Shown here: positions 7,246-33,860 of the stretch, one piece after another | Layout of the letters: each line of letters starts with the position of its first letter | How positions within the stretch are numbered: the stretch's first letter is position 1 | Assembly: GCA_051294375.1 (NCBI GenBank) | Contig: JBJCIZ010000326.1 | Span: forward strand, 1 to 36,039 | Length of the DNA: 36,039 nt | Reading direction: 5' to 3' | DNA from: Paraspadella gotoi | Taxonomy: Eukaryota > Animalia > Chaetognatha | Notes under the pieces: generated by a model | Told to the model about the DNA's origin: nothing | Database searches by the model: none | What the model saw: only the letters and a program-made list of their open reading frames with translations | Position numbers and translations under genes: made by a program

Positions 7246-7928
7246 TTGAAAATGAGAAGAAAAAAAAATTATTATCCTTGTTGATTTCTATTCCACAAAA
7301 TAAACAAGTAATTTGAAAATTTTCATATTATACAATTAACATAAAATTTAAATAAGGGAGTAAAAAAGAGTAGTCCCCGTTATAATACTTTATGGAGTGG
7401 TGCTTTTAAACAATTGAAACATTCTTTGAAACATTATACCACTTGATAGAGAAGCCAAGTACTCCTGGAGTAAAAAAGACTGTGAGAGTCTTAAGTAAAA
7501 ACTTTAAGGGTCTTGCTATTTTATTATTTTATGATGGAGGCCTTTAACCACCAAAGCCAGTCCAAAGTCAAGGACAAAATCGCTTATTTATAAATGTTTG
7601 TACCAATTTCATTAATCAAAAGCCTGCTATGGTACACTGCGGCAAAAAAAGTAGCTACTACCATGATGGAAACAAAAATTGTCGCGGTTACTTTCCAGCT
7701 ATTTTTCAGCATTTTAATGTGAGAATCAAAAAATAAAATTTACATATCGAAAAACTTTGGCCTTCTGTGATTCATATGAGCTATTTATGTACGACAAAAA
7801 AATAATTTAACATTTTATAACTTCTCTTTTTATAGTGAAACCAAATTACTTTTTTATATTTTAATTTTGTCTGGTAACTTATGTACTTTTGTTAATAAAT
7901 TATATAAAAGTTATAAGTTATCAGTTAC

Positions 7929-11640: not shown

Positions 11641-12816
11641 TTTAATAAAGGAATTTTAACAGTGGTATGATCTCCTTCATATACGCACAGAGAGAGAGAG
11701 AGACAGAAAGAGAAAGAAAGAGATACAGTACCGGTCTTGGCTTTCCTTCATAAGTCCAGGGAAGCTATATCTTCTATAATAATGAATGGAATGACTTGAT
11801 ATGCATGTGTGGGATGGAACTCGGTATGGTCTATTCCCCATTCTATATTTCAAAAAAAAATTTTGAAGTTTTGTTTTGAGCATCATTTTTAAACAAAAAT
11901 TTAATTTGCATACTCTGCTCAAAATACTTAAAGGATATAATTTTTTTTCTCACTAAAAATTAATCTAACATTACTTGGTCTAATGGTAAAGTGTTAGGCT
12001 GAAAAAAAATATTTATTTATTAATTTAGGCATAGTTGCTAATAATAATAATTAGCATATTATTTATTTTTTATTTATTAGTTCAACTCATTGATATAAAT
12101 TAATAGTTGATTGATAGGCAATTTTATTCCTGTAATCAAATGTATATATTTTTTTTATAATTAACTAAATAGTGTTTTTTTATATATTACTACAAAAATA
12201 TGATTTTTGATAAATAATATTTTGTTTTAAAAAAAATTATGCCAAATTATTGGTGAAATGGTTACTGATTACAAATATATAAATTTTTTAAAATTTGGAT
12301 AAACCCATGAAAAAATACAGACCCAAAAAAGCCCTAAAGATGGTCAAAAACACCCTGTTTTTTTAAACCTTTCTAAAAAACTGCAATAACGCGAATTTCC
12401 AACTCAAATTTGTAAGGTATATTAGAATTAGTAGTATTTTATTGCCTGAAAAAATCCAAAGACGTAGTAATAATTGTTACCTAATTATACAGATTTAATA
12501 GTGAGACGTCCTAAGAAATTCCTGAGGGTAATTTTAAATTTTGTTGAGGTTGTCTAAGTTTTTCTCGTATTTTTCTGTATCTCTCTGTTATTTTCTTCTT
12601 TTTATTACCTCTCCCTTCTTTCCTCATTCTCTCTCTACTCTCTCTCTCTCTCTCACTCTCCCTATCTTTCTTTCTCTATCTCTATTCCGTTCTCTCCTCT
12701 CTCTCTCTCTTTCGCTCTGTCACTTTTTTTTCTGTCAGTTGAACTTTGACTCGTGAGAGACTGCTATGATTTAGGTCTGAATTTATTATTCTTCCTTTAA
12801 GATTTTTACCATCTGT

Positions 12817-13021
12817 ACAGGCCATCTTGTTCAGGGAGTCAGACTGTCTCGTGCTGTCCCATGACCAAAACTGGTTTCAAGAACGGGTATTTAGAGAAGC
12901 AATTTACATCAAAGCTCTCGAGCCCTCTTTGAACCGTGATTCGGACCTCCCTCCAAGCTATGATACGCTTTATCAAAAAGCGTGTGGGAGGCCCCGCCGC
13001 TACCACGCCCGCCACAATTGA
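12817..13021 (+). pseudogene. C-terminal fragment of a Penelope-type GIY-YIG endonuclease
   Basis: ...VLSHDQNWFQERVFREAIYIKALEPSLNRD matches the PLE endonuclease end pattern (IL.E.NWF.R...EAIYI....PSLNRD), preceded by TGH. Confidence 0.85.
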
Positions 13022-13863
13022 TTCCCCTAACTATACTCAACGAGACAGACGGAGACCCTTGCGCAGGCAATGGACAAACGATTTCCACTCCCTCCAAACG
13101 AAGCAAGCTCAGCCCTCTCTCTGTGGAGTGAGCGGCCGGCCCAAAACGACGGGCTTCAGCGAGGAGGGAGAGGAGTTGCCGTCACTCCTGTCGCAAAAGC
13201 GAGCGAAACGGAAAGCCCCCGCCTCGCCAAACAGGCGAGAAGAGGGCAGTCAGCAGGCGTATCCGACCAGAGAAGTATATAAGATGAGGCCGTGGGAATC
13301 TTTCCTCCTCTGGTACAATCCCCAATGCGGCCATCTACTGGTTCAATCCCACTCTCCTCTCAACCATTGACGCTGCCAATGACCCGTCACCTTCGTTTCA
13401 ATGTCCTTCATTTGCATTAAACCAAGGGGGCCAGCTCAATTTGAGCTCTTTCTTAATCCTTGAATTTCACTTCCTAATCACTTGATTACTAAAACAAACT
13501 TTCTTTCACATTTCAAATTTCACATTTCACTTTCTATCCCTTAGCTTAATACATATTTATTCTTTAGTTAATTGTTAAATTTCACTAACATTTAGTTTTT
13601 CAAAATTATTATATTCTCTGTTGTACATTGCACAATGTATCATTTTATTATTTATTTATCCCTCTGTTTCCTCTTCCCTCATTCTCTCTCTCTTTAACAG
13701 TTTCACTTCTTTTTCACAACTCACTCAATCTGTCCTCACCTTCATCCTGTCTCACATCTGACCACACTATTCTGTCTCACCACTTTGTTGGAAAACTTTT
13801 ACCCTCTCTCTCTCTCACACTCTTCTTCTGCACAAAAAAATTTCAATATTTCAAAAAATGTAT

Positions 13864-14122: not shown

Positions 14123-14317
14123 ACCGTTCAATACAAGCAGTCCCTGAGCTTCGAATCAGGCTGTAACACAATGTAACAGGCGGGTTAAGCGCCCCATCCT
14201 TTTAACTGCTAGGCGACCACCGGGCTAGAACCCTGACCTTTGGTTTTGGAGTTGAATGACTTGCCTCGGCACCAATGGCCGCTGGATAACTGTTGGTGGA
14301 TTTAGTCCACCATAATA
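14123..14317 (-). mobile_element. Truncated solo LTR of TRIM family A, with tRNA-like module at 14213-14282
   Basis: The reverse complement aligns with 30518-30709 and 30933-31141 and lacks the last ~40 bp of the LTR. It abuts a HINE terminus at 14090-14122. Confidence 0.85.
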
Positions 14318-14481
14318 CGAAAAGCTAATTCTGCCTGATAAATCACGATAATCTTTCTGACTTCAATGTGATACTAAAACAGATCATAACAAATCTATAA
14401 CAAATCATGACAGACTTTATTATAATATTATGAAAATATCTATATATCAATGATCAATCAATACCATTTGTGCGCCATACC

Positions 14482-15853: not shown

Positions 15854-17149
15854 CAGATTGACGTAGATCACTGATCTTACTCTATACCGCGAGCTTCCAT
15901 CCAATTCTGTTATTGAAACCACATCATAAATGCATATCCTCGATAAAATATCACACCTTTCTTCCATTTTTTTAAAGGAGAGAAGAATGAAGGAAAGAAA
16001 GGGAGAGGTAAGTAGAGAAGATAACTAAGATTGTAAAAGAAATACGAGAAAACCGAGACGACATCAGCAAAATATAAAATAGCTGATTTTTTAGGAATGT
16101 CTCGCTATTTAATCTGCTAAATTAAGTAAAAATTATTACTACATCTTTGATTTTTTCAGGCAATAAAATACTACTAATTCTAATATATCCTTACAAAATT
16201 TTGACTGTTTGAAATATTCTTTAGTCACGTTATTCTGCAGTTTTAGAAAGTGTTTAAAAAATAGTGGTTTTGACCATTTTTAGGGCTTTTGGGTCTGTAT
16301 TTCTTTCATGGGTTATCAAATTTAAAAAAAATTATATATTTGTAATCAGTAACATTTCACCAAAATTTGGCATAATCTTTTTTAAACAAAAGTATTATTT
16401 ATCAAAAAATCATATTTTGTAGTAATATATAATAAAAACACTATTTAGTTAATAATCAAAAAAAATTATAAATTTGATTACAGGAATATAAATTGCCATC
16501 AATCAACTATTAATTTATATAAATAAAAAGTTGAACTAATAAATAAAAAATAAATAATAAGCTAATTATTATTATTTAGAAACTATGCATAAATAATAAA
16601 TAAATATTTTTTTTTCAGCCTAACACTTTACCATTAAACAAGTAATGTTAGATAATTTTTAGTGAGAAAAAAAATTATACGTTCAGTTATTTTTGAGCAG
16701 AGTATGCAAATTAAATTTTATTTAAAAATGAATGCTCGAAACAAAACTTCAAAATTTTTTTTTGAAATATAGATAGGGAATTATAGACCATACCGAGTTC
16801 CATCCCACACATCATATCAAAGTAATCATTCCATTCATTATTATAGAGATATAGCGTCCTCTGGACTTATGAAGGAAAGCCAAGACCGTACTGTAGACAG
16901 AGACAGAGAGAGAGAAAAAGAGAAAACTGGACAGCCACTTAGGAAGGAAGCTGTACAGTCACTGCAGAGCCTAAACTCGTTTTAAATGGTTCAAAGAGCG
17001 AGGAACTGACAAATTGACAGGTTTGTTTCTAAATATCTTTTAAATTTAGAGAGAGAAATGATATATGAAATTTGCAGATATCTGTATTACTTTTTTGTAT
17101 TCCTACTATTATTTCTATTTATTAATATATGTTATGAAGATAATTAGTA

Positions 17150-18124: not shown

Positions 18125-19435
18125 AAAAAATGTTACAATTGTTTACTATTGGAAATTGATACAATTTTTTCCAATCATAGCTTGTAACAGATTTTATTTT
18201 TATTTGTATTAAAATTAAGATATAGCTTCACATTAAAAAGGTCTTTTGATTTCACATGTTTTTTTATTGATTCAAAGATTTTTTTATGAATTTCATCTTC
18301 AAAATTATTTACTGCAATATGTAAATTAGATTAAAGTATTTCTATATAATAATTTGGATATTATATTGAGTACTCTAATCTCATTTGCATATTGCAGTAA
18401 ATCATAATGAAGTGGAAATTCAAACAAAAAATACTTACATCCAAATGTAATATAAAAATTTCAAAGCTTTTTTAAGATGAGAAGCCATATCTAAAATTTT
18501 AACTTACTATGATCGCACACTTTTATAAAACTTCATTGTAATTCATAATAATTTTTATTTAAAAAAAAACTGTAAGTCCCAGCAAAACTATAAAAGCATA
18601 GTAGTTTTTATACAAAAAAGTGTGATGCCGACGACGACGACGACTACGTCACAAAGAATCCTGGCCTTCGCTTAATAAAACAGTCTAAGAAAGTTATGGT
18701 AGTCATGTCATGTCACGTCGTCATGTCAAGTCACAAAGAACACACTGATAAGGCAGTCACTGCGGCGTAACACACTAAATTACCGTTCTAGTTTCACAGT
18801 TTCTACATTTAAATATCCTTTTTCCTCAACTAACAGTTATTATCGAGCCTCCCGGCGAAGCCGGTTCAGGCTCGATATTGATTCGGGTTAGCTTCTTTGT
18901 GACTTCGTCGGCGTCATTGTCGTCGTCGTAGTCATAACGCATTTTTATATAAAAACTACTACGCTTTTATAGTTTTGGCTAGGACTTACCGTTTTTTTTT
19001 AAATAAAAATTATTATAAATTACAATGAAGTTTTATAAAAGTGTGCGATTATAGTAAGTTAAAAATTTAGATATGGCTTCTCATCCTAAAATAGCTCTGA
19101 AAATTTCATATTACATTTGGATTCAAGTATTATTCGTTTGAATTTCCACTTCATTAAGATTTACTGATATATGCAAATGAGATTATAGTACTCATTATAA
19201 TATCCAAATTAGTATATAGAAATGCTTTAATCTAATTTACATATTGCAGTAAATAATATTGAAGATGAAATTCATAAACAAATCTTTGAATCAATAAAAA
19301 ACATGTGAAATCAAAAGACCTTTTTAAAGAGAAGCTATATCTTAATTTAAATACAAATAAAAATAAAATCTTTTACAAGCTATGATTGGAAAAAATTTTA
19401 AAAATTTCCAAATGTAGACAATTGTAACATTTTTT
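18125..19435. mobile_element. Inverted pair of a second HINE-like family (18125-18678 and 18838-19435)
   Basis: ~540-bp arms are reverse complements. (GAC/GTC)n microsatellite. Terminal hairpin atcgagcct-cccggcgaagccgg-ttc-aggctcgat at 18842-18876. Confidence 0.7.
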
Positions 19436-22059: not shown

Positions 22060-22489
22060 CGTTGACGTTTAGTCAAATAACGAGGTAAATAATAAGTGGC
22101 AAAGTATTTGGTTGACAATGGTTTTATTTAATGACGGACAATGATTAGGTGATGACATAGGTAACGATGACACGATGACAAAGGTTAAGAACAAAGGTGA
22201 TGACAATATTAAATGGTTTCAATAATTATTAGAAGAAGAGTTCTTTCTTGAGTTTGGGTGTAGAGGTGAATGCCTAGAGTTTTCCTAGCAATTTTTGACC
22301 ATCAATCCCTCCGTCGGTTTCTCTGTCAGTCATTGGTCATTCTAAGGTTGAAGTAAGGTCTGTGATTCGTCGGCATTCTGATGATTCGTGAAGGAGACGA
22401 GCAATCATCACACCTAGGTCAACCAAGTCCGTTTATAGGTCCATTCCGTTGATGTCACCCCCTCTCTAGTCGACGAGGGCGGTGGGTCT

Positions 22490-25292: not shown

Positions 25293-25739
25293 ACACGTTG
25301 ACGTTTAGTCAAATAACGAGGGTAAATAATAAGTGGCAAAGTATTTGTTGACAATGGTTTTATTTAATGACGGACAATGCCATTAGGGTGATGACATAGG
25401 TAACGAATGACACGATCGACAAAGGTTAAGAACAAAGGTGATGACAATATTAAATGGTTCAATAATTATTAAAGAAGAAGAGTTCTTTCTTGAGTTTGGG
25501 TGTAGAGGTGAATGCTAGAGTTTCCTAGCATTTTGACCATCAATCCCTCGTCGGTTTCTCTGTCGGTCATTGGTCATGTCTAAGGTTGAAGTAAGGTCTG
25601 TGATTCCGTCGGCATTCTGATGATTCGTGAAGGAGACGAGCATCACCATGCACTAGGTCAACCAAGTTCGGCGTTTATAGGTCGCATTCGTTGATGATCT
25701 TATGCACAGCTAAAAAAATAATACAAGTTTCTGTCATTT

Positions 25740-27689: not shown

Positions 27690-30189
27690 CTTGAAAAAAT
27701 ATTAATTATATTGGAAATGAAAAATGTAAGGGACCTGGACTACAGACTGACGAAGAAAGGGGACGCCGGAGGTGAGAGACATCTCACCGACAGTCGGTGC
27801 TCATGGCTTTTGACGAGCTTGTCATACTTAGGAAGCCGTTATAGAAAAAGAATTATATTTTTATATCGATAGATGTGGAATGACGGGAATATTCGTAGAA
27901 ATCTCAAGTTTCAGCTTAATCGAGACCATCACATTGTGGAGAAATTTTAGGAAACCCATCAAAATTCCACCCCCTTTTTTTTTCAACATTCTCGCCTTTT
28001 AAGATTTTCGGCCGATTCTGACTTCCTCTTATCAAAACTTATAATTCCGCTAGTTAATTTTTTTTTCTTAAAGAGTGGAAGGGAATCCACAACTTTCTGT
28101 TATTTATATTGATCTGGGTAAAAAATATAATAAATTAACATTAACATTGGGATATTATGAAAGTGTAATATCTTATGAAGCCTGTGAGAGTTAAATAAAT
28201 TAAAAAGTTCGCTTATTTTATTATTGAAAAATAACATCAAGTGAAGAAGTTGATGGTCTTCGCGCTCATCTCAGTAAACATCCCGTTCTCTAGCATAAAA
28301 TAATGTTTACTTTTTGCTGGCGTGGAAAAGAAGATAAATACTTAGGCCTGTGATGGTGGTGAATAATATTTTGTAGAATTTTGTAAAAGCGATGCGCTTG
28401 TAAATCAGACAAGCAAATATTTTAATATGAAAAAAATTCACATTTTCTTTATCCAAAAAACTTTAAAGTTTACTAGAGTACAATTTAGACCTTTTTTCTT
28501 TCAGAATCATTAAAAAGAAGTTAAATTTTCATTTATTCTTATGGGGTGTCATTAGTTTTAAAATTCATTATAATTTTGACCTTAGTTTGACATTCACCCT
28601 GTAAGGAGGTTTCAGCATAAGTTAATTTAAAATTGTTATCTTGTATGTGCCCTATGATTATGGCTTCATTTTGGTACTATTACCATCCCTTTATCTTTAT
28701 TCCTTCAAAAGATATTAGGAAAAATCAGTTTTTTTTCTCAACCTTCCTTTTAATTTCTTTTAAATAAAAAATTTCGCGATTCAAACAGGACTATTTCATT
28801 TAAACCTGATCATTTTATGTCAAAATCATTATAAAATGAAAAAAGAAAAATAGGACAAGCTCTTCAGACACAAAGCTATCAAGTCGCGAAATTCGAAGTC
28901 GCTCATGTAACAGAGAACATATTGCAATCCCCGTTTGCAATTTTAAGTTTGTTAAACTTTCCCTTTCATTTCTATAGTAAAAATGAGGTTTGAAAATTCT
29001 CTGGAGATGAGTAGTGCATTTCCCCTGGCTTGTTTGAATATTAAATCCTTTATCAAATGCCATAAAACGAATAGGACAAGCTCTTCAGATGTAACGCTCT
29101 CGGAATCGTGCGTTTTTACAAGTGTTTTTTAAACCGACTTTCTGGCAAACGCGTTTGCAATTTGGGTAGTCAGATTTGAACGGAATTCTCTATTAGAAAA
29201 TGGTTGAATTTTTTTTTAAGCGAGATTCTCGTCTATCATACTATGACATAATCATTAAGCCGGGCCAGAATTCAATATTTTTGACAATTTAAAACAGTTT
29301 AAAATAAGTCTTATCTAATTTCATAACCGAATTGATTTGTCAATTTTCATATACAAATCTTTAAAATTTTAAAAAGTTGTATTACTAACCTAGGCAAAAA
29401 TCTTGCTTAAAAAAAATTCTATATTTTTCTAATAGAGATTTCCGTTCAAATCTGACTGCCCAACTTTACAAACGAGCCTTCAAGAAATTCCGGTAGAAAA
29501 CAGTTGTAAAAACACCCAATTCCGACAGCTTTGCATCTCAAGAGCTCGTTCCTTTCTTCTTGTGGAATTTGATAAAGATTTTACTATCAAACAAGCCAGG
29601 GAAAATGGACTTCTCGTCTCCAGAGGATTTTCATACCTCATTTTTACTATAGAAATGAAAGGGAAATTTCATTTTTTTAAAATTACAAACGGGATTAGAG
29701 TATGTTATCATTATAAATGGTACTTCGAATTATGAGATTCCAAAAGCCTTGTGTCCCTAGACCTCATTCTATTTTTCTTTTTATTATTGACCAATTTTTT
29801 CATATTAAACCAACATGGTAAAGTGAATTGGTCCAGTTTTCATCGCGAAATTTTTATTTAAAAAGAAATTAAAAGGAAGATTAAGAGAAAAAACTTATTT
29901 TTCCTAATATCTTTTGAAAGAACGAAGATAAAGGGATGGCAATTGTACCAAAATAAAGCCATAATCATAGGTAGGGATTAGCAGTATTCGACGAAATTTT
30001 TATTTTTCTATCGGCCGAAAAATAATAGGAAATTTGATTCCAAAAAACAAGGATTTTTGAAATATTTACTATATGGAAAATACTAAAAAGAAAAATTTTA
30101 TTTTTTATTTATATGTACTGTAAGGGTAAGTCCAACTAAAAACCGAAAAAGAATCTTTCAAATATAAAAAATATTGGAATAGTACAGAA

Positions 30190-30345: not shown

Positions 30346-30517
30346 CATTTTATATCATCTTTCCTATTGTATATTAAGGCCTATGAATCTTTATTATGTA
30401 TGAAACTCCTATAATATATTTATTATGATCTTAAGATTTATCATGCCTTTTTTCTGCCTACAACAATTCCTCCTTTGCTAAATATACATATTACCTATAA
30501 TTATTATAATGGGTAAT

Positions 30518-31181
30518 ATTATGGTGGACTAAAATCCACCAACCGTTCATCAGCGGCCCAATGGCCGGAGGCAAGACATTCGCCTCCAACAAGTCCGGGG
30601 TTCTAGCCCGGTGGTCGTCCTGGCAGTTAAGAGGGATGGGGCGCTAACCTGCCTGTAACATGGTGTTACAGCCTGATCCAAAGCTCAGGGACTGCTTATA
30701 TTGAACGGTCTTGTCACTAACACATAATAATAATTACGGTCTCTTCATTGGTGAGCCCGACTTCCGAACACAGACAGCGAACAACAACACTTCAGGCGAC
30801 AATGCTCAACCTGGCGATGCACTTTCCGCCCAACAACACATCAGGCGACATGCCTCAACTTGGTGACGAACTTTCCACCAACAAAACAATTCACTGAAGA
30901 GACGCAACAGACTTCTCCCAACGGGGGGGGGATGTATGGTGGACTAAAATTCACACCAACCGTTCATCCAGGCGCATTGGGTGCCGGAGGCAAACGACAT
31001 TCGCCTCCCAACCCAAAGGTCCGGGGTTCTAGCCCGGTGGTCGTCTGGCAGTTAGAGAGGACGGGAGCTGCGCTTAACCCGCCTGTAACGATGGTGTTAC
31101 AGCCTGATCCGAAAGCTCAGGACTGCTTATAATTGAACGGTTTCTGTTCATTAACACTTAATAATAATTACTGTCTCTTCA
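30518..31181 (+). mobile_element. TRIM family A: LTR 30518-30747, PBS 30749-30761, 185-bp interior, PPT 30923-30932, LTR 30933-31181; tRNA-like module in each LTR
   Basis: Direct repeats ending ctcttCA, and the 3' LTR starts TG. PBS TGGTGAGCCCGAC, PPT ggggggggga, possible ATAT TSD. B-box-like GGTTCTAGCCC. Confidence 0.88.
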
Positions 31182-31563
31182 ATATCTTTATTCATAGTCT
31201 TCTTTTTTAACTAAGTTTCAAATATAAACCTAAAGAACGATGTTGATCTACAATTCTCATATTTTTTAATAAAATTGGTCCACTGACTTTTATGTGGTTG
31301 ATCTTTGTTTTTTTTTTTTATCTATGATTTGAATATTTAATTTTTCGTATTTGTTTTTTTCTTTGATTTTAAAGAATCAAAACCAAAAGTAATCGACTTA
31401 GAATCGAAGATTGTAATAAAAATAAAAGAGAAAGAAAAGGGAGGAAAGGGAAAAGAGAGAGGATATAGTGGCGCAGTTTTACGTCATTTACGCCATTTCT
31501 ACGCCAAATCATCTTCAACTTAATAGCTTTATTTGGAAAATGAAAAAAAGTTTTTAACGCCAC

Positions 31564-32323
31564 TTGATGTCAGCAGCACTTAAAGTGCCTCACGCTGTAC
31601 CGTCCCTCACCTCGTCTCAATTGGTGAGCAGCTAAATCATCCACGCCATCCGTGCGTCCCGGGTTCAATTCCCTGGTTATCCCCGGGTTCTGGCTTAAAT
31701 GTGAACGGATGCCCGGTATAAACATGCCAGGACAGGCAGGCGGTCACTGAGGGTCCGCAGCCCACGAAAAGCAACAGTTGGTGAAGATACCCCGCGCCCG
31801 GGTATCACAGGCTATCCTCCCGTTGCCATAAGTGGTGAGCCCTACTCTCGAACACGCAACCGCGTGCGCACCGTGCGCCCATGCTTACGTCGCTTAGGGT
31901 ATGCATATCACGCCTATGCCCTACTTCTCTGGTAACGCTCCAGACTCGCTCGCTCGATCGCGCCCATTCGCTCTCACTACTGGGCAATGAGATCAAAACC
32001 TTCTCTCAGACATCCCTCAGGATTGAGGCCCCTGTGGAGAAGTCTCGGTGGGGGGATCCTGTGGCAAGCAAGACTTAAAGCTGCCTCACTGCTGTCCGTC
32101 CTCAAGCCTCGTCTCCAATGGCTGAGCAGGGCTAAATCATCTCATTCCATCCGTGCGTCCCGGGTTTCAATCCCTGGGTATCGCGGTTCTGGCTTAAATG
32201 TGACGGTGCCGGTATATAACATGCCAGTGGACAGGAGGCGGTCAGCTGCAGGCCGCAGCCCCCTACGCCAGTCTGGTGAATGATATCCCCCCCCGTATCA
32301 CAGGCTATCCTCCCGTTGCCATA
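31564..32323 (+). mobile_element. TRIM family B: LTR 31564-31830, PBS 31833-31845, PPT ~32047-32056, LTR 32060-32323; A/B-box-like module in each LTR
   Basis: Direct repeats with inverted termini TGTGGCAA…TTGCCATA. PBS TGGTGAGCCCTAC, TSD gccac/accac, and CCCGGGTTCAATTCCC at 31658-31673. Confidence 0.85.
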
Positions 32324-33860
32324 ACCACAAAATTAAATGATATTAATATGGTTTTCTGTTCATTTTAGCGCCATTCTATCGCCATAACCTGTATAAAAAA
32401 GGCCGCAAATAATATTAAATCAACTTAACTGAGTGGTTTTTACTAGAAAATTACTAGAAATACGCCGACAGAATAGATAATATTTATATCGTTTTTTGTT
32501 AATTTTACGCCATTCTACGCCACATCTGTATAAAAAAGGCCGGATAAATCTTTAAAACCACTTAACCGAATAGCTTTTACTAGAAAATAATCGGAAAGTC
32601 TTTACGTCTCATCATGATATCATATTAAACGGTTTTACCTTCATTTCACGCCATTTTACGCCACAATTCTTTTCCTAATTTAAATATAAACATTTACACT
32701 TATTTAACCTGATATATTTTAAAATTTTTTTTGGAAAAATCATTAACGCCACATATGTAACTAGGAAATAATACATTTTGGCATACTTTTTACGCCACCA
32801 GCGCCAACAAACACGCAAAAAAAAAATCAAATCTGAATCAAATACTACTATGTATTTTTAATCAAAAAAAAGCGTTTTCCAAAATTTTGGTTGAATATCC
32901 TTGACAGCAGTAAGGAGGCAGAAAAGTTACTCCTAATTGACGTAAATCAGTTGGCGTAAATCAAATATTTAAAAGTCAAACTTGGAATTAACGATTAAAG
33001 TACACTTTGATAGGCTTGATATAAGGTTTAAAACCATCGAATGAAGAAAATCAGTATTTTTAAAATTTTTGTGCAATACCCTATCATAGGGAACATACAA
33101 GATACAATTTTAGAATTTTTTTGCTGAAATCTCTTTACAGGGTGAGTGTCAAACTAAGTCAAAATTATAATGAATTTAAAAACTAATGACACCCCATAAG
33201 AATAAATAAAAATTAAATTCTTTTTAATGATTCTGAAAGAAAAAAAGCTAAATTGTACTCTAGTACTCTAGTGGATAAAGAAAATGTAAATTTTTTGTCA
33301 CTTAAATAATTGCTTGTCTGATTTTACAAGCATGCTTACAAAATTCAACAAAATATTATTCACCCCATCACAGTCTAAGTATTTATCTTTCTTTTCCACC
33401 AGCAAAAAGTAAACATTTTCTTATTTTAGAGAACAGGGACATTTACTGAAAGGAGCCAAGAGATGTTCAACTTCTTCACTTTAATATCAGTTAATAATAA
33501 AATAGGCAAATTTTTTAATTACTCAACTTTGACAGGCTTCACAAGACATTACACTTTCACAATATCCTAACGTTTATGTAATGTTTTATATTTTTTTATC
33601 TAGAAATGATAAAAGATTAGAAAGTTGTGGATTCCTTTCGCTCATTAAAGGAAAAAAAATTAACTAGCGGAATTATAAGTTTGTAAGACTAAGAAGCAGT
33701 CAGAATCGGCAAAAAACTTAAAAGGCGAGAATGTTGAAAAAAAGGGGTAGAATTTCTTCTAAACTCATGGGCCAATTTAGACGTAACTTAAGATTTACAT
33801 TATGGTAAGTCGCCTCAATTATTCCAGTCATTCTCGATCTAAAAATATAAAAATATTATG

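What the first reader, a model, noticed from the sequence alone, without database searches (positions are those of the whole stretch)
30518..32323. Two unrelated miniature LTR retroelements whose LTRs are built around tRNA-like Pol III promoters
Seen: two adjacent elements with LTR-PBS-short interior-PPT-LTR structure and dissimilar LTR sequences. Both carry an A-box-like motif followed by a T-arm/B-box (A: CCGGGGTTCTAGCCCGG; B: CCCGGGTTCAATTCCC). In family A the module closes a 7-bp acceptor-like stem (GCGGCCA/TGGTCGC in the solo copy) about 70 nt apart. Known: plant Cassandra TRIMs use 5S-derived LTR promoters, and I recall a tRNA-LTR TRIM group named Helenus, so novelty must be checked. Inference: these are SINE/LTR hybrids transcribed by Pol III and mobilised by an LTR retrotransposon's RT and integrase, possibly acquired twice independently.
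Basis: partly seen in the sequence, partly recalled or inferred. Interest (0 to 1): 0.9.

Follow-up and report, generated by a model that had tools for sequence, protein, structure and literature searches.

The report
Mini LTR retrotransposons carrying twister ribozymes
Two small, gene-less jumping elements sit side by side here, and each of their end repeats holds a tRNA-like promoter motif followed by a predicted self-cutting twister RNA, so they likely copy themselves through a small RNA circle, a route so far described only for hammerhead-bearing elements mostly of plants.

Summary
Both elements are real TRIMs: A 30520-31181 (TSD ATAT), B 31564-32324 (TSD CCAC). Each has a Trp-like PBS and a PPT; empty sites and about 100 distinct flanks appear in run contigs. 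The tRNA-like A/B boxes are strong in B and borderline in A. That much is the known Helenus kind (Kojima 2024), which this scan has noted before (39 notes, at least 13 genomes).

Three copies beat all 1500 shuffles. All five appear among 7-8 weak hits of two phage-trained models (best E 0.026). Rfam misses them, and each family breaks one near-invariant twister position.

Likely mechanism: Pol III transcription, cleavage in both LTRs, a 430- or 497-nt circle, and Gypsy-type copying, i.e. an LTR retrozyme with a twister. Cleavage, circles, Pol III use and host taxon are untested. No twister-bearing LTR element turned up in nine paper searches or two scan look-ups.

The parts
30516..30519 (.). 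Element A left target-site duplication ATAT
   Evidence: empty site in one contig of run X5
30520..30747 (+). Element A 5' LTR (TA...CA)
   Evidence: 90-105 contigs leave into unlike flanks at each end in runs X1 and X4
30553..30618 (+). A 5' LTR tRNA-like module: acceptor-like stem, weak A box, B box 30599-30608 (T at position 57), T-arm
   Evidence: (15/1500 shuffles)
30623..30695 (+). A 5' LTR twister-like fold, type-P5 order; predicted cut T30645/A30646; catalytic-G equivalent 30635; L4 30677-30684
   Evidence: only descriptor hit in the window; 39.1, 0/1500; E 0.026, other register
30749..30771 (+). A primer-binding site, tRNA-Trp-like; 20 of 23 bases shared with B
   Evidence: compared by eye with the Trp PBS in Kojima Fig. 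S2: 12 of the first 13 bases
30782..30888 (+). 2.2 copies of a 49-nt internal repeat
30923..30932 (+). A polypurine tract
30935..31181 (+). Element A 3' LTR
31048..31126 (+). A 3' LTR twister-like fold; predicted cut before A31076; one extra A in L4
   Evidence: 29.9, 0/1500
31182..31185 (.). Element A right target-site duplication ATAT
31560..31563 (.). Element B left target-site duplication CCAC
   Evidence: joint 31556->32325 in 4 of 4 runs
31564..31831 (+). Element B 5' LTR (ends ...ATAA)
31622..31677 (+). B 5' LTR A box to B box/T-arm (B box 31662-31671, 9/9 consensus positions)
   Evidence: 1/1500; the script chose an A-box register starting at 31613
31690..31766 (+). B 5' LTR twister-like fold; 4-bp P2; predicted cut T31719/A31720; C in place of the conserved L4 A
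   Evidence: 26.4, 0/1500; best hit, E 0.42; E 0.4
31833..31855 (+). B primer-binding site, tRNA-Trp-like
32050..32056 (+). B polypurine tract
32060..32324 (+). Element B 3' LTR (start uncertain by about 3 nt)
32119..32179 (+). B 3' LTR A box (8/8) to B box/T-arm
   Evidence: 2/1500
32189..32271 (+). B 3' LTR twister-like fold; the window has an extra T at the cut site that run contigs lack
   Evidence: 17.2, 33/1500; loose ends at 32216 in runs X5 and X7
32325..32328 (.). Element B right target-site duplication CCAC
14123..14314 (-). Third family-A copy: 3'-truncated LTR with acceptor-like stem and decayed twister-like fold (predicted cut before 14186)
   Evidence: 18.4, 21/1500

Best explanation
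These are two high-copy, gene-less LTR retroelements whose LTRs each hold a tRNA-like promoter motif followed by a predicted twister ribozyme, and they likely propagate as LTR retrozymes. Inferred cycle: RNA polymerase III starts at the tRNA-like module of the 5' LTR and reads through, since neither element has a T4 stop on the sense strand. The twister cuts once in each LTR, releasing a unit-length RNA (430 nt for A, 497 nt for B in window coordinates) with no terminal repeat. A host tRNA ligase closes it into a circle. A Ty3/Gypsy-type helper that uses tRNA-Trp primes at the PBS, copies round the circle to rebuild two full LTRs, and integrates the DNA with a 4-bp duplication. Shown: the anatomy, mobility signs, box motifs and a twister-ordered fold. 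Inferred: Pol III use, cleavage, circularisation and helper identity.
For: (1) A strict P5-order twister descriptor hits once in the whole window on both strands, in the A 5' LTR, with 0-2 of 20000 shuffles per LTR hitting. (2) With a general score, the best site in all five LTRs lies at the same place, just 3' of the B box on the sense strand; 0/1500 shuffles for A5, A3 and B5, 21/1500 and 33/1500 for the other two; they are the top three of 393 window tiles. (3) Two covariance models built only from phage twister-type loci return the five LTR copies among 8 and 7 hits at E<=10. (4) The shared uncommon pseudoknot (GACGG with loop TCCGAAGC) occurs in fully paired phage folds (10 of 120 loci, 5 unique), and a 3-bp P2 like A's is common (35 of 92 loci). 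(5) T1 changes in step in A5 (CCA/TGG) vs A3 (CCG/CGG). (6) Run contigs give GACGG for A and TAA-ACAT-GC plus a P3 strand for B (loose ends). (7) No TTTT on the sense strand of either element, whereas most Helenus LTRs I read have a T-run right after the tRNA part. (8) Helenus-2_SyJa and -2_SyUm, the Trp-PBS Helenus in the parts I read, show a hammerhead core at the same place (by eye). (9) The circle model follows plant LTR retrozymes (PMC4918200 Discussion); RtcB circularises animal retrozyme RNA in vitro (PMC7229834).
Against: Rfam gives no twister hit at E<=10. The covariance-model hits are weak (best E 0.026 and 0.4) and often not in my register. Family A has A-U in place of the 'essentially invariant' G-C closing L4, and family B has C in place of the conserved L4 A; neither variant was found fully paired in phages (0 of 23, 0 of 17 loci, one sequence background only). 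P1 is 0-3 bp. P2 of A has a mismatch in two of three copies. The A5/A3 T1 change is also what CpG decay gives. Minimum-energy folds prefer other pairings (z -1.9 to +0.8). Predicted circles are not unusually stable (52% and 63% paired, z -0.83 and -0.68). The lack of TTTT is common in shuffles (604/5000 and 3518/5000). The A-family A box is weak.
Confidence: 0.55

Rival explanations
1. Ordinary Helenus-type TRIMs. The twister-like part is an inherited but now inactive ribozyme, or a non-catalytic fold, and the elements copy through a linear Pol III RNA with a short terminal repeat.
For: One near-invariant twister position is changed in each family, with no fully paired phage precedent; Rfam negative; alternative folds are preferred; circles are unremarkable.
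Against: Both families keep the catalytic G, the cut-site A, T2 and a paired T1 although their LTRs no longer align. No T4 terminator is present to end a linear Pol III RNA in the 3' LTR.
Confidence: 0.25
2. The twister cuts, but the tRNA-like boxes are relics. Transcripts come from Pol II or read-through, as proposed for other retrozymes, and the ribozymes alone define the RNA ends.
For: A-family boxes are borderline (15/1500, 109/1500; T at B-box position 57) and the A-box half is poorly conserved in three copies; no tRNA model hit. A plant retrozyme LTR has its own mapped promoter (PMC12029980, abstract only).
Against: Family B has near-consensus A and B boxes at tRNA spacing (1/1500, 2/1500), and the T-arm is among the best-conserved parts of A (21/24).
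Confidence: 0.15
3. The twister resemblance is a chance fit of a flexible pattern to GC-rich, hairpin-rich LTRs.
For: Scoring was designed after inspection; the LTRs are GC islands (51-57% vs 27-30% flanks); a non-LTR site scores 26.1; model E-values are weak.
Against: Same position, strand and order in two non-aligning families; 0/1500 shuffles for three copies; antisense best scores of 4-11 against 13-29 sense; phage-trained models pick all five copies.
Confidence: 0.05

Closest known systems
Helenus (TRIMp3), Kojima 2024, PMC10886601 (whole main text read; supplement parts 1 and 5-11 of 11 read, parts 2-4 only motif-searched)
   Same: Under 1 kb, non-coding, two LTRs, PBS, PPT, 4-bp TSD as in animal Helenus, A/B-box tRNA-like module in the LTR; Trp-type PBS as in Helenus-2_SyJa/Gypsy-32_NVi.
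   Different: Here the tRNA-like module lies in the 5' half, has no T-run behind it and is followed by a twister-like fold; it is too degenerate for ARAGORN or Rfam. The paper describes no ribozyme in Helenus, though Helenus-2_SyJa/SyUm show a hammerhead core by eye. No short motif of A or B matched a listed family.
Plant LTR retrozymes, Cervera et al. 2016, PMC4918200 (passages and Discussion read)
   Same: Ribozyme in each LTR, PBS, PPT, 4-bp TSD, no coding region; cut-to-cut unit predicted to circularise.
   Different: Twister-like rather than type III hammerhead; Trp-like rather than Met PBS; smaller unit (430-497 nt vs about 700); tRNA-like promoter upstream of the cut; the predicted circle is less self-paired. 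Animal retrozymes are reported to lack LTR, PBS and PPT (PMC7229834, PMC7761336, passages).
Schistosoma Sm-alpha SINE-like repeats (via review PMC6765202, passages)
   Same: Pol III promoter followed by a self-cleaving ribozyme, so the promoter ends up at the 3' end of the cut unit.
   Different: Non-LTR tandem repeats with a hammerhead; no PBS, PPT or short TSD.
Twister variants at the 5' end of Schistosoma Perere-3 non-LTR elements, PMC8501958 (passages)
   Same: Twister ribozyme with reduced or absent P1 inside a retroelement; similar P3/L4 layout.
   Different: Type-P1 order, a single copy heading an autonomous LINE; here type-P5 order, one per LTR, with a swapped T1 pair.
Cassandra and Ajax (5S-derived TRIMp3; as described in PMC10886601)
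   Same: Pol III-type promoter inside TRIM LTRs.
   Different: 5S-derived rather than tRNA-derived; linear RNA with an 18-nt repeat in Cassandra; no ribozyme described.

Membership tests
Helenus (TRIMp3) | Non-coding element under 1000 bp with two LTRs | tested here: met
   662 and 761 bp; internal frames have no Pfam hit
Helenus (TRIMp3) | PBS and PPT inside the LTRs | tested here: met
Helenus (TRIMp3) | 4-bp (animal) or 5-bp (fungal, plant) TSD | tested here: met
   ATAT and CCAC, with empty sites; one element per family only
Helenus (TRIMp3) | A box (TRGCY...YGG) and B box (GGTTC) at tRNA spacing | tested here: met
   B: 1/1500 and 2/1500 shuffles; A only borderline, 15/1500 and 109/1500
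Helenus (TRIMp3) | Detectable similarity to a tRNA or SINE2 sequence | tested here: inconclusive
Helenus (TRIMp3) | Transcription by Pol III | not testable with these tools
   needs 5'-end mapping or ChIP; untested for Helenus too
LTR retrozyme | Hammerhead ribozyme in each LTR | tested here: not met
   no hammerhead hit in Rfam at E<=10; a twister-like fold is there instead
LTR retrozyme | LTRs, PBS, PPT and 4-bp TSD | tested here: met
   the PBS is Trp-like, not Met
LTR retrozyme | Highly self-paired unit-length RNA | tested here: not met
   52% and 63% paired, z -0.83 and -0.68 on 60 shuffles; copies carry many indels
LTR retrozyme | Circular RNA accumulates in vivo | not testable with these tools
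   only assembled contigs were available
Twister ribozyme | P2, P4, T1 and T2 in one of the three permuted orders | tested here: met
   type-P5 order; A5 complete; B5 has a 4-bp P2, paired T1 and a 2-bp P4
Twister ribozyme | Catalytic G in L1 and A 3' of the cut | tested here: met
   present in A5, A3, the third A copy and B5; B3 has an extra T that run contigs lack
Twister ribozyme | Essentially invariant G-C pair closing L4 | tested here: not met
   A-U in 3 of 3 family-A copies; G-C in B5; 0 of 23 phage loci with A-U were fully paired
Twister ribozyme | Conserved L4 adenine forming the trans A-A pair | tested here: not met
   C in 2 of 2 family-B copies, A in family A; 0 of 17 phage loci with C were fully paired
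Twister ribozyme | Match to a curated or independent twister model | tested here: inconclusive
   Rfam none; phage-trained models find all five copies but best E is 0.42 and 0.026
Twister ribozyme | Self-cleavage at U/A | not testable with these tools
   needs an in vitro assay

The most novel reading that the evidence does not exclude
These are the first twister-based LTR retrozymes: Pol III-driven, tRNA-Trp-primed TRIMs in a probably non-plant host that mature into small circular RNAs through a divergent type-P5 twister. Together with the unnoticed hammerhead in wasp Helenus-2, they define a ribozyme-bearing branch of Helenus in which the ribozyme class is interchangeable and replaces the Pol III terminator.
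Probability: 0.45. Interest if true: 0.82.

Novelty: new variant of a known kind. Interest (0 to 1): 0.7.

Why it matters
If true, it links two element kinds described separately: Helenus (Pol III TRIMs) and retrozymes (ribozyme-processed circles). It would extend LTR retrozymes beyond hammerheads and probably beyond plants. It offers a concrete answer to how an element with a promoter inside both LTRs and no terminator makes a unit-length template. It would give twister ribozymes a second retroelement role, after Perere-3. The variants that break 'invariant' positions are cheap to test in vitro and would inform twister structure rules and search models, since Rfam misses them.

Tried and rejected
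No whole genome is held, so there was no genome-wide copy alignment, TSD table or covariation test. A second read-laying on the B ribozyme region gave no result, so the population state of B's L1, L4 and P4 is open. No RNA holder is listed; run X5 is only guessed to be RNA and holds genomic flanks, so it says nothing on expression. A metagenome scan with the shared PBS gave 2 loci, both chance matches in what looks like a bacterial gene. ARAGORN and five Rfam scans found no tRNA or ribozyme family. Hammerhead, hairpin, HDV-like and pistol readings of the LTRs were considered by eye from recalled consensus motifs and dropped; no call beyond Rfam tested them. Reading the first hairpin (the B-box arm) as twister P4 was dropped because no T1 partner or P2 fits. 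Alignment A4 mis-registered the 3-bp-P2 rows; six such rows were left out before building model R2. Model R2 was a second try after R1 gave no significant hit. The pair count used a structure one column off; the +1 slide is fully paired but invariant, so it is uninformative. Host taxon was not established: two protein searches found nothing, and a profile search gave five unnamed proteins without Pfam hits. Scan look-ups by place and by sequence were empty.

Full report
The window is an AT-rich (mostly 25-35% GC per kb), repeat-dense eukaryotic sequence. No whole genome is held and the host taxon was not established. An invertebrate animal is my inference, from the 4-bp TSDs, the Trp-type PBS and a remnant that I recall as Penelope-like.

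Observation. Element A runs 30520-31181 with LTRs 30520-30747 and 30935-31181, a PBS at 30749, a G-run PPT and the duplication ATAT. Element B runs 31564-32324 with a PBS at 31833, a PPT at 32050 and the duplication CCAC. B ends in ATAA rather than CA. A third, 3'-truncated A LTR lies at 14314-14123. Four public runs of one coded organism were laid on the region (four of the nine holders listed). One contig bridges the empty A site, a joint bridging the empty B site is seen in 4 of 4 runs, and 90-105 contigs per end in two runs leave the A LTR into unlike flanks. Both elements sit inside other repeats, so these empty sites may be paralogues. The window copies are noisy: paired LTRs differ mainly by indels (20 gap openings to 8 substitutions in A, 29 to 14 in B), and many are absent from run contigs. 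The 82-84% LTR identity therefore likely overstates age.

tRNA-like module. A combined A box, B box and T-stem score is matched by 1 and 2 of 1500 shuffles for the B LTRs and by 15 and 109 of 1500 for the A LTRs; in the third A copy the best site was a different one. ARAGORN and Rfam see no tRNA. In A the module folds as an acceptor-like stem, one long arm and a T-arm rather than a cloverleaf. Among three A copies the T-arm half is well kept (21/24 columns) and the A-box half is not (12/25). This is the Helenus kind of Kojima 2024 (PMC10886601; main text read whole; supplement parts 1 and 5-11 read; parts 2-4 only motif-searched). The PBS matches the tRNA-Trp PBS listed there at 12 of the first 13 bases in A (by eye). 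The scan's notes hold 39 Helenus-type findings in at least 13 genomes.

What was missed. Most Helenus LTRs I read end shortly after the B box with a T-run. Here there is no TTTT on the sense strand of either element (1 of 108 window tiles lacks one, but 604/5000 and 3518/5000 shuffles of the elements do too). Instead 75-95 nt of structured sequence follows. Its order is that of a type-P5 twister as defined in PMC5408937 (parts 1-3 of 7 read) and the sequence table of PMC8501958 (passages): P5, P2', G-A, T1', a short linker, U/AA, P2, GC, P3, P4 with the eight-base loop, P5'. A strict descriptor hits once in 72 kb of both strands, in the A 5' LTR; 0-2 of 20000 shuffles per LTR hit. A tolerant score without P3/P5 gave 0, 1, 31, 1 and 7 of 300 shuffles for A5, A3, third A, B5 and B3, with the last two best sites off register. 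With P3/P5 bonuses all five best sites fall at the homologous place: 39.1, 29.9, 18.4, 26.4 and 17.2, matched by 0, 0, 21, 0 and 33 of 1500 shuffles. A5, A3 and B5 are the top three of 393 tiles, and the next is a non-LTR site at 26.1. These scores were designed after inspection, and the five copies are two families.

Independent checks. An alignment of 55 of them shows the expected covariation. Models built only from these found the five LTR copies among 8 hits (R1, best E 0.42) and among 7 hits (R2, 22 sequences enriched for P3, best E 0.026). The alignments were often in other registers, so this is weak support. The uncommon T1 variant shared by A and B occurs in fully paired phage folds (10 of 120 loci, 5 unique), and a 3-bp P2 is common (35 of 92). 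Against: family A has A-U where the pair closing L4 is called essentially invariant G-C, and family B has C for the conserved L4 adenine; 0 of 23 and 0 of 17 phage loci with those changes were fully paired, tested in one sequence background. Rfam finds no twister, and minimum-energy folds favour other pairings. P1 is nearly absent, which the review says is tolerated. Pairwise mutagenesis shows that T1 tolerates swaps that keep pairing (PMC9901934, passages); I did not see data there for the two changed positions.

Relation of A and B. The LTRs do not align (50/300 and 254/300 shuffles as good), but the PBS regions share 20 of 23 bases (0/300), and module order and T1 variant are the same. One old origin or one shared helper fits better than two independent captures. 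This is inference.

Mechanism. The likely cycle is that of LTR retrozymes (PMC4918200, passages and Discussion), with a Pol III start added. Transcription from the 5' LTR boxes runs through; each LTR cuts; the 430-nt (A, 30646-31075) or 497-nt (B, 31720-32216) unit has no R repeat and is ligated, as RtcB does for animal retrozyme RNA in vitro (PMC7229834, passages). A tRNA-Trp-primed Gypsy-type RT then copies the circle and integrase makes a 4-bp duplication. The predicted circles are not unusually stable (z -0.83, -0.68), which counts against the model, though the copies are error-rich. None of these steps is shown. A supporting parallel: Helenus-2_SyJa and -2_SyUm, which also use a Trp PBS, show by eye a complete hammerhead core with complementary loops right after their B box, and the paper's text mentions ribozymes only in citing retrozymes.

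Novelty. Nine full-text searches and two scan look-ups showed no LTR element or TRIM with a twister. Animal retrozymes are stated to lack LTR, PBS and PPT (PMC7229834; PMC7761336), and LTR retrozymes to be primarily plant elements with type III hammerheads (10.64898/2026.07.22.740005, passages). Also consulted: PMC6765202 (passages), PMC10085705 (passages), 10.1101/2022.07.19.500677 (passages), PMC12029980 (abstract). The library lacks most subscription papers, Roth et al. 2014 and its eukaryotic twister lists were not read, bioRxiv supplements are closed, and Repbase was not searchable, so prior annotation cannot be excluded.

Verdict: a real feature, and a new variant of known kinds. As plain Helenus it would merit about 0.3. 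The twister-like fold in both families, with a direct bench test, raises it to 0.7.

Noticed in passing
PMC10886601 supplement Data S1, Helenus-2_SyJa-LTR and Helenus-2_SyUm-LTR: Both published wasp consensus LTRs show by eye a full hammerhead core, open at stem III, with complementary loops 1 and 2, directly after the B box; the paper does not mention it. They look like unrecognised animal LTR retrozymes.
   Followed up: partly
L107, L063, L075, L099, L119 (viral contigs): Natural P5-ordered twister folds with the usually conserved T1 C-G pair swapped to G-C.
   Followed up: partly
L372-L461, L326, L327 (viral contigs): 35 of 92 loci form full twister folds with a 3-bp P2, although the review cites a suggestion that P2 length changes disrupt the active site.
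   Followed up: partly
L256, L288, L319, L435 and the contig of L384/L442-L445: Single phage contigs carry three to six twister-type folds a few hundred bases apart.
   Followed up: no
window about 7545-7625, minus strand: Best non-LTR twister score (26.1) in an AT-rich stretch without P3 or P5; probably chance.
   Followed up: no
window 12770-13370: Decayed retroelement fragment whose frame resembles, from recall, the GIY-YIG tail of Penelope-like elements; five unnamed homologues at E 1e-5 to 1e-3.
   Followed up: partly
window 22060-22454 and 25296-25696: About 400-bp direct repeats (93% identity) flank a 2.8-kb broken coding-like region with an (A/T)-rich tail; possible retroelement.
   Followed up: no
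window 28651-29971, 522-1503, 18125-19435, 11724-12639 with 15976-16895: Several long inverted-repeat (foldback or MITE-like) elements, some nested.
   Followed up: no
window 31470-31563 and 32325-32800: Element B interrupts a repeat of about 140-bp units rich in ACGCCA motifs.
   Followed up: no
window 30516-30519, 31182-31185, 14315-14318: Family A flanks are ATAT and GTAT, and run-contig flank consensus begins ATAT in two runs (agreement about 0.4): a weak hint of an alternating A/T target preference.
   Followed up: partly
window 30542-30549 with 30701-30708: An 8-bp stem encloses the whole tRNA-like plus twister-like region of the A LTR; the third A copy ends exactly at its 3' strand.
   Followed up: no
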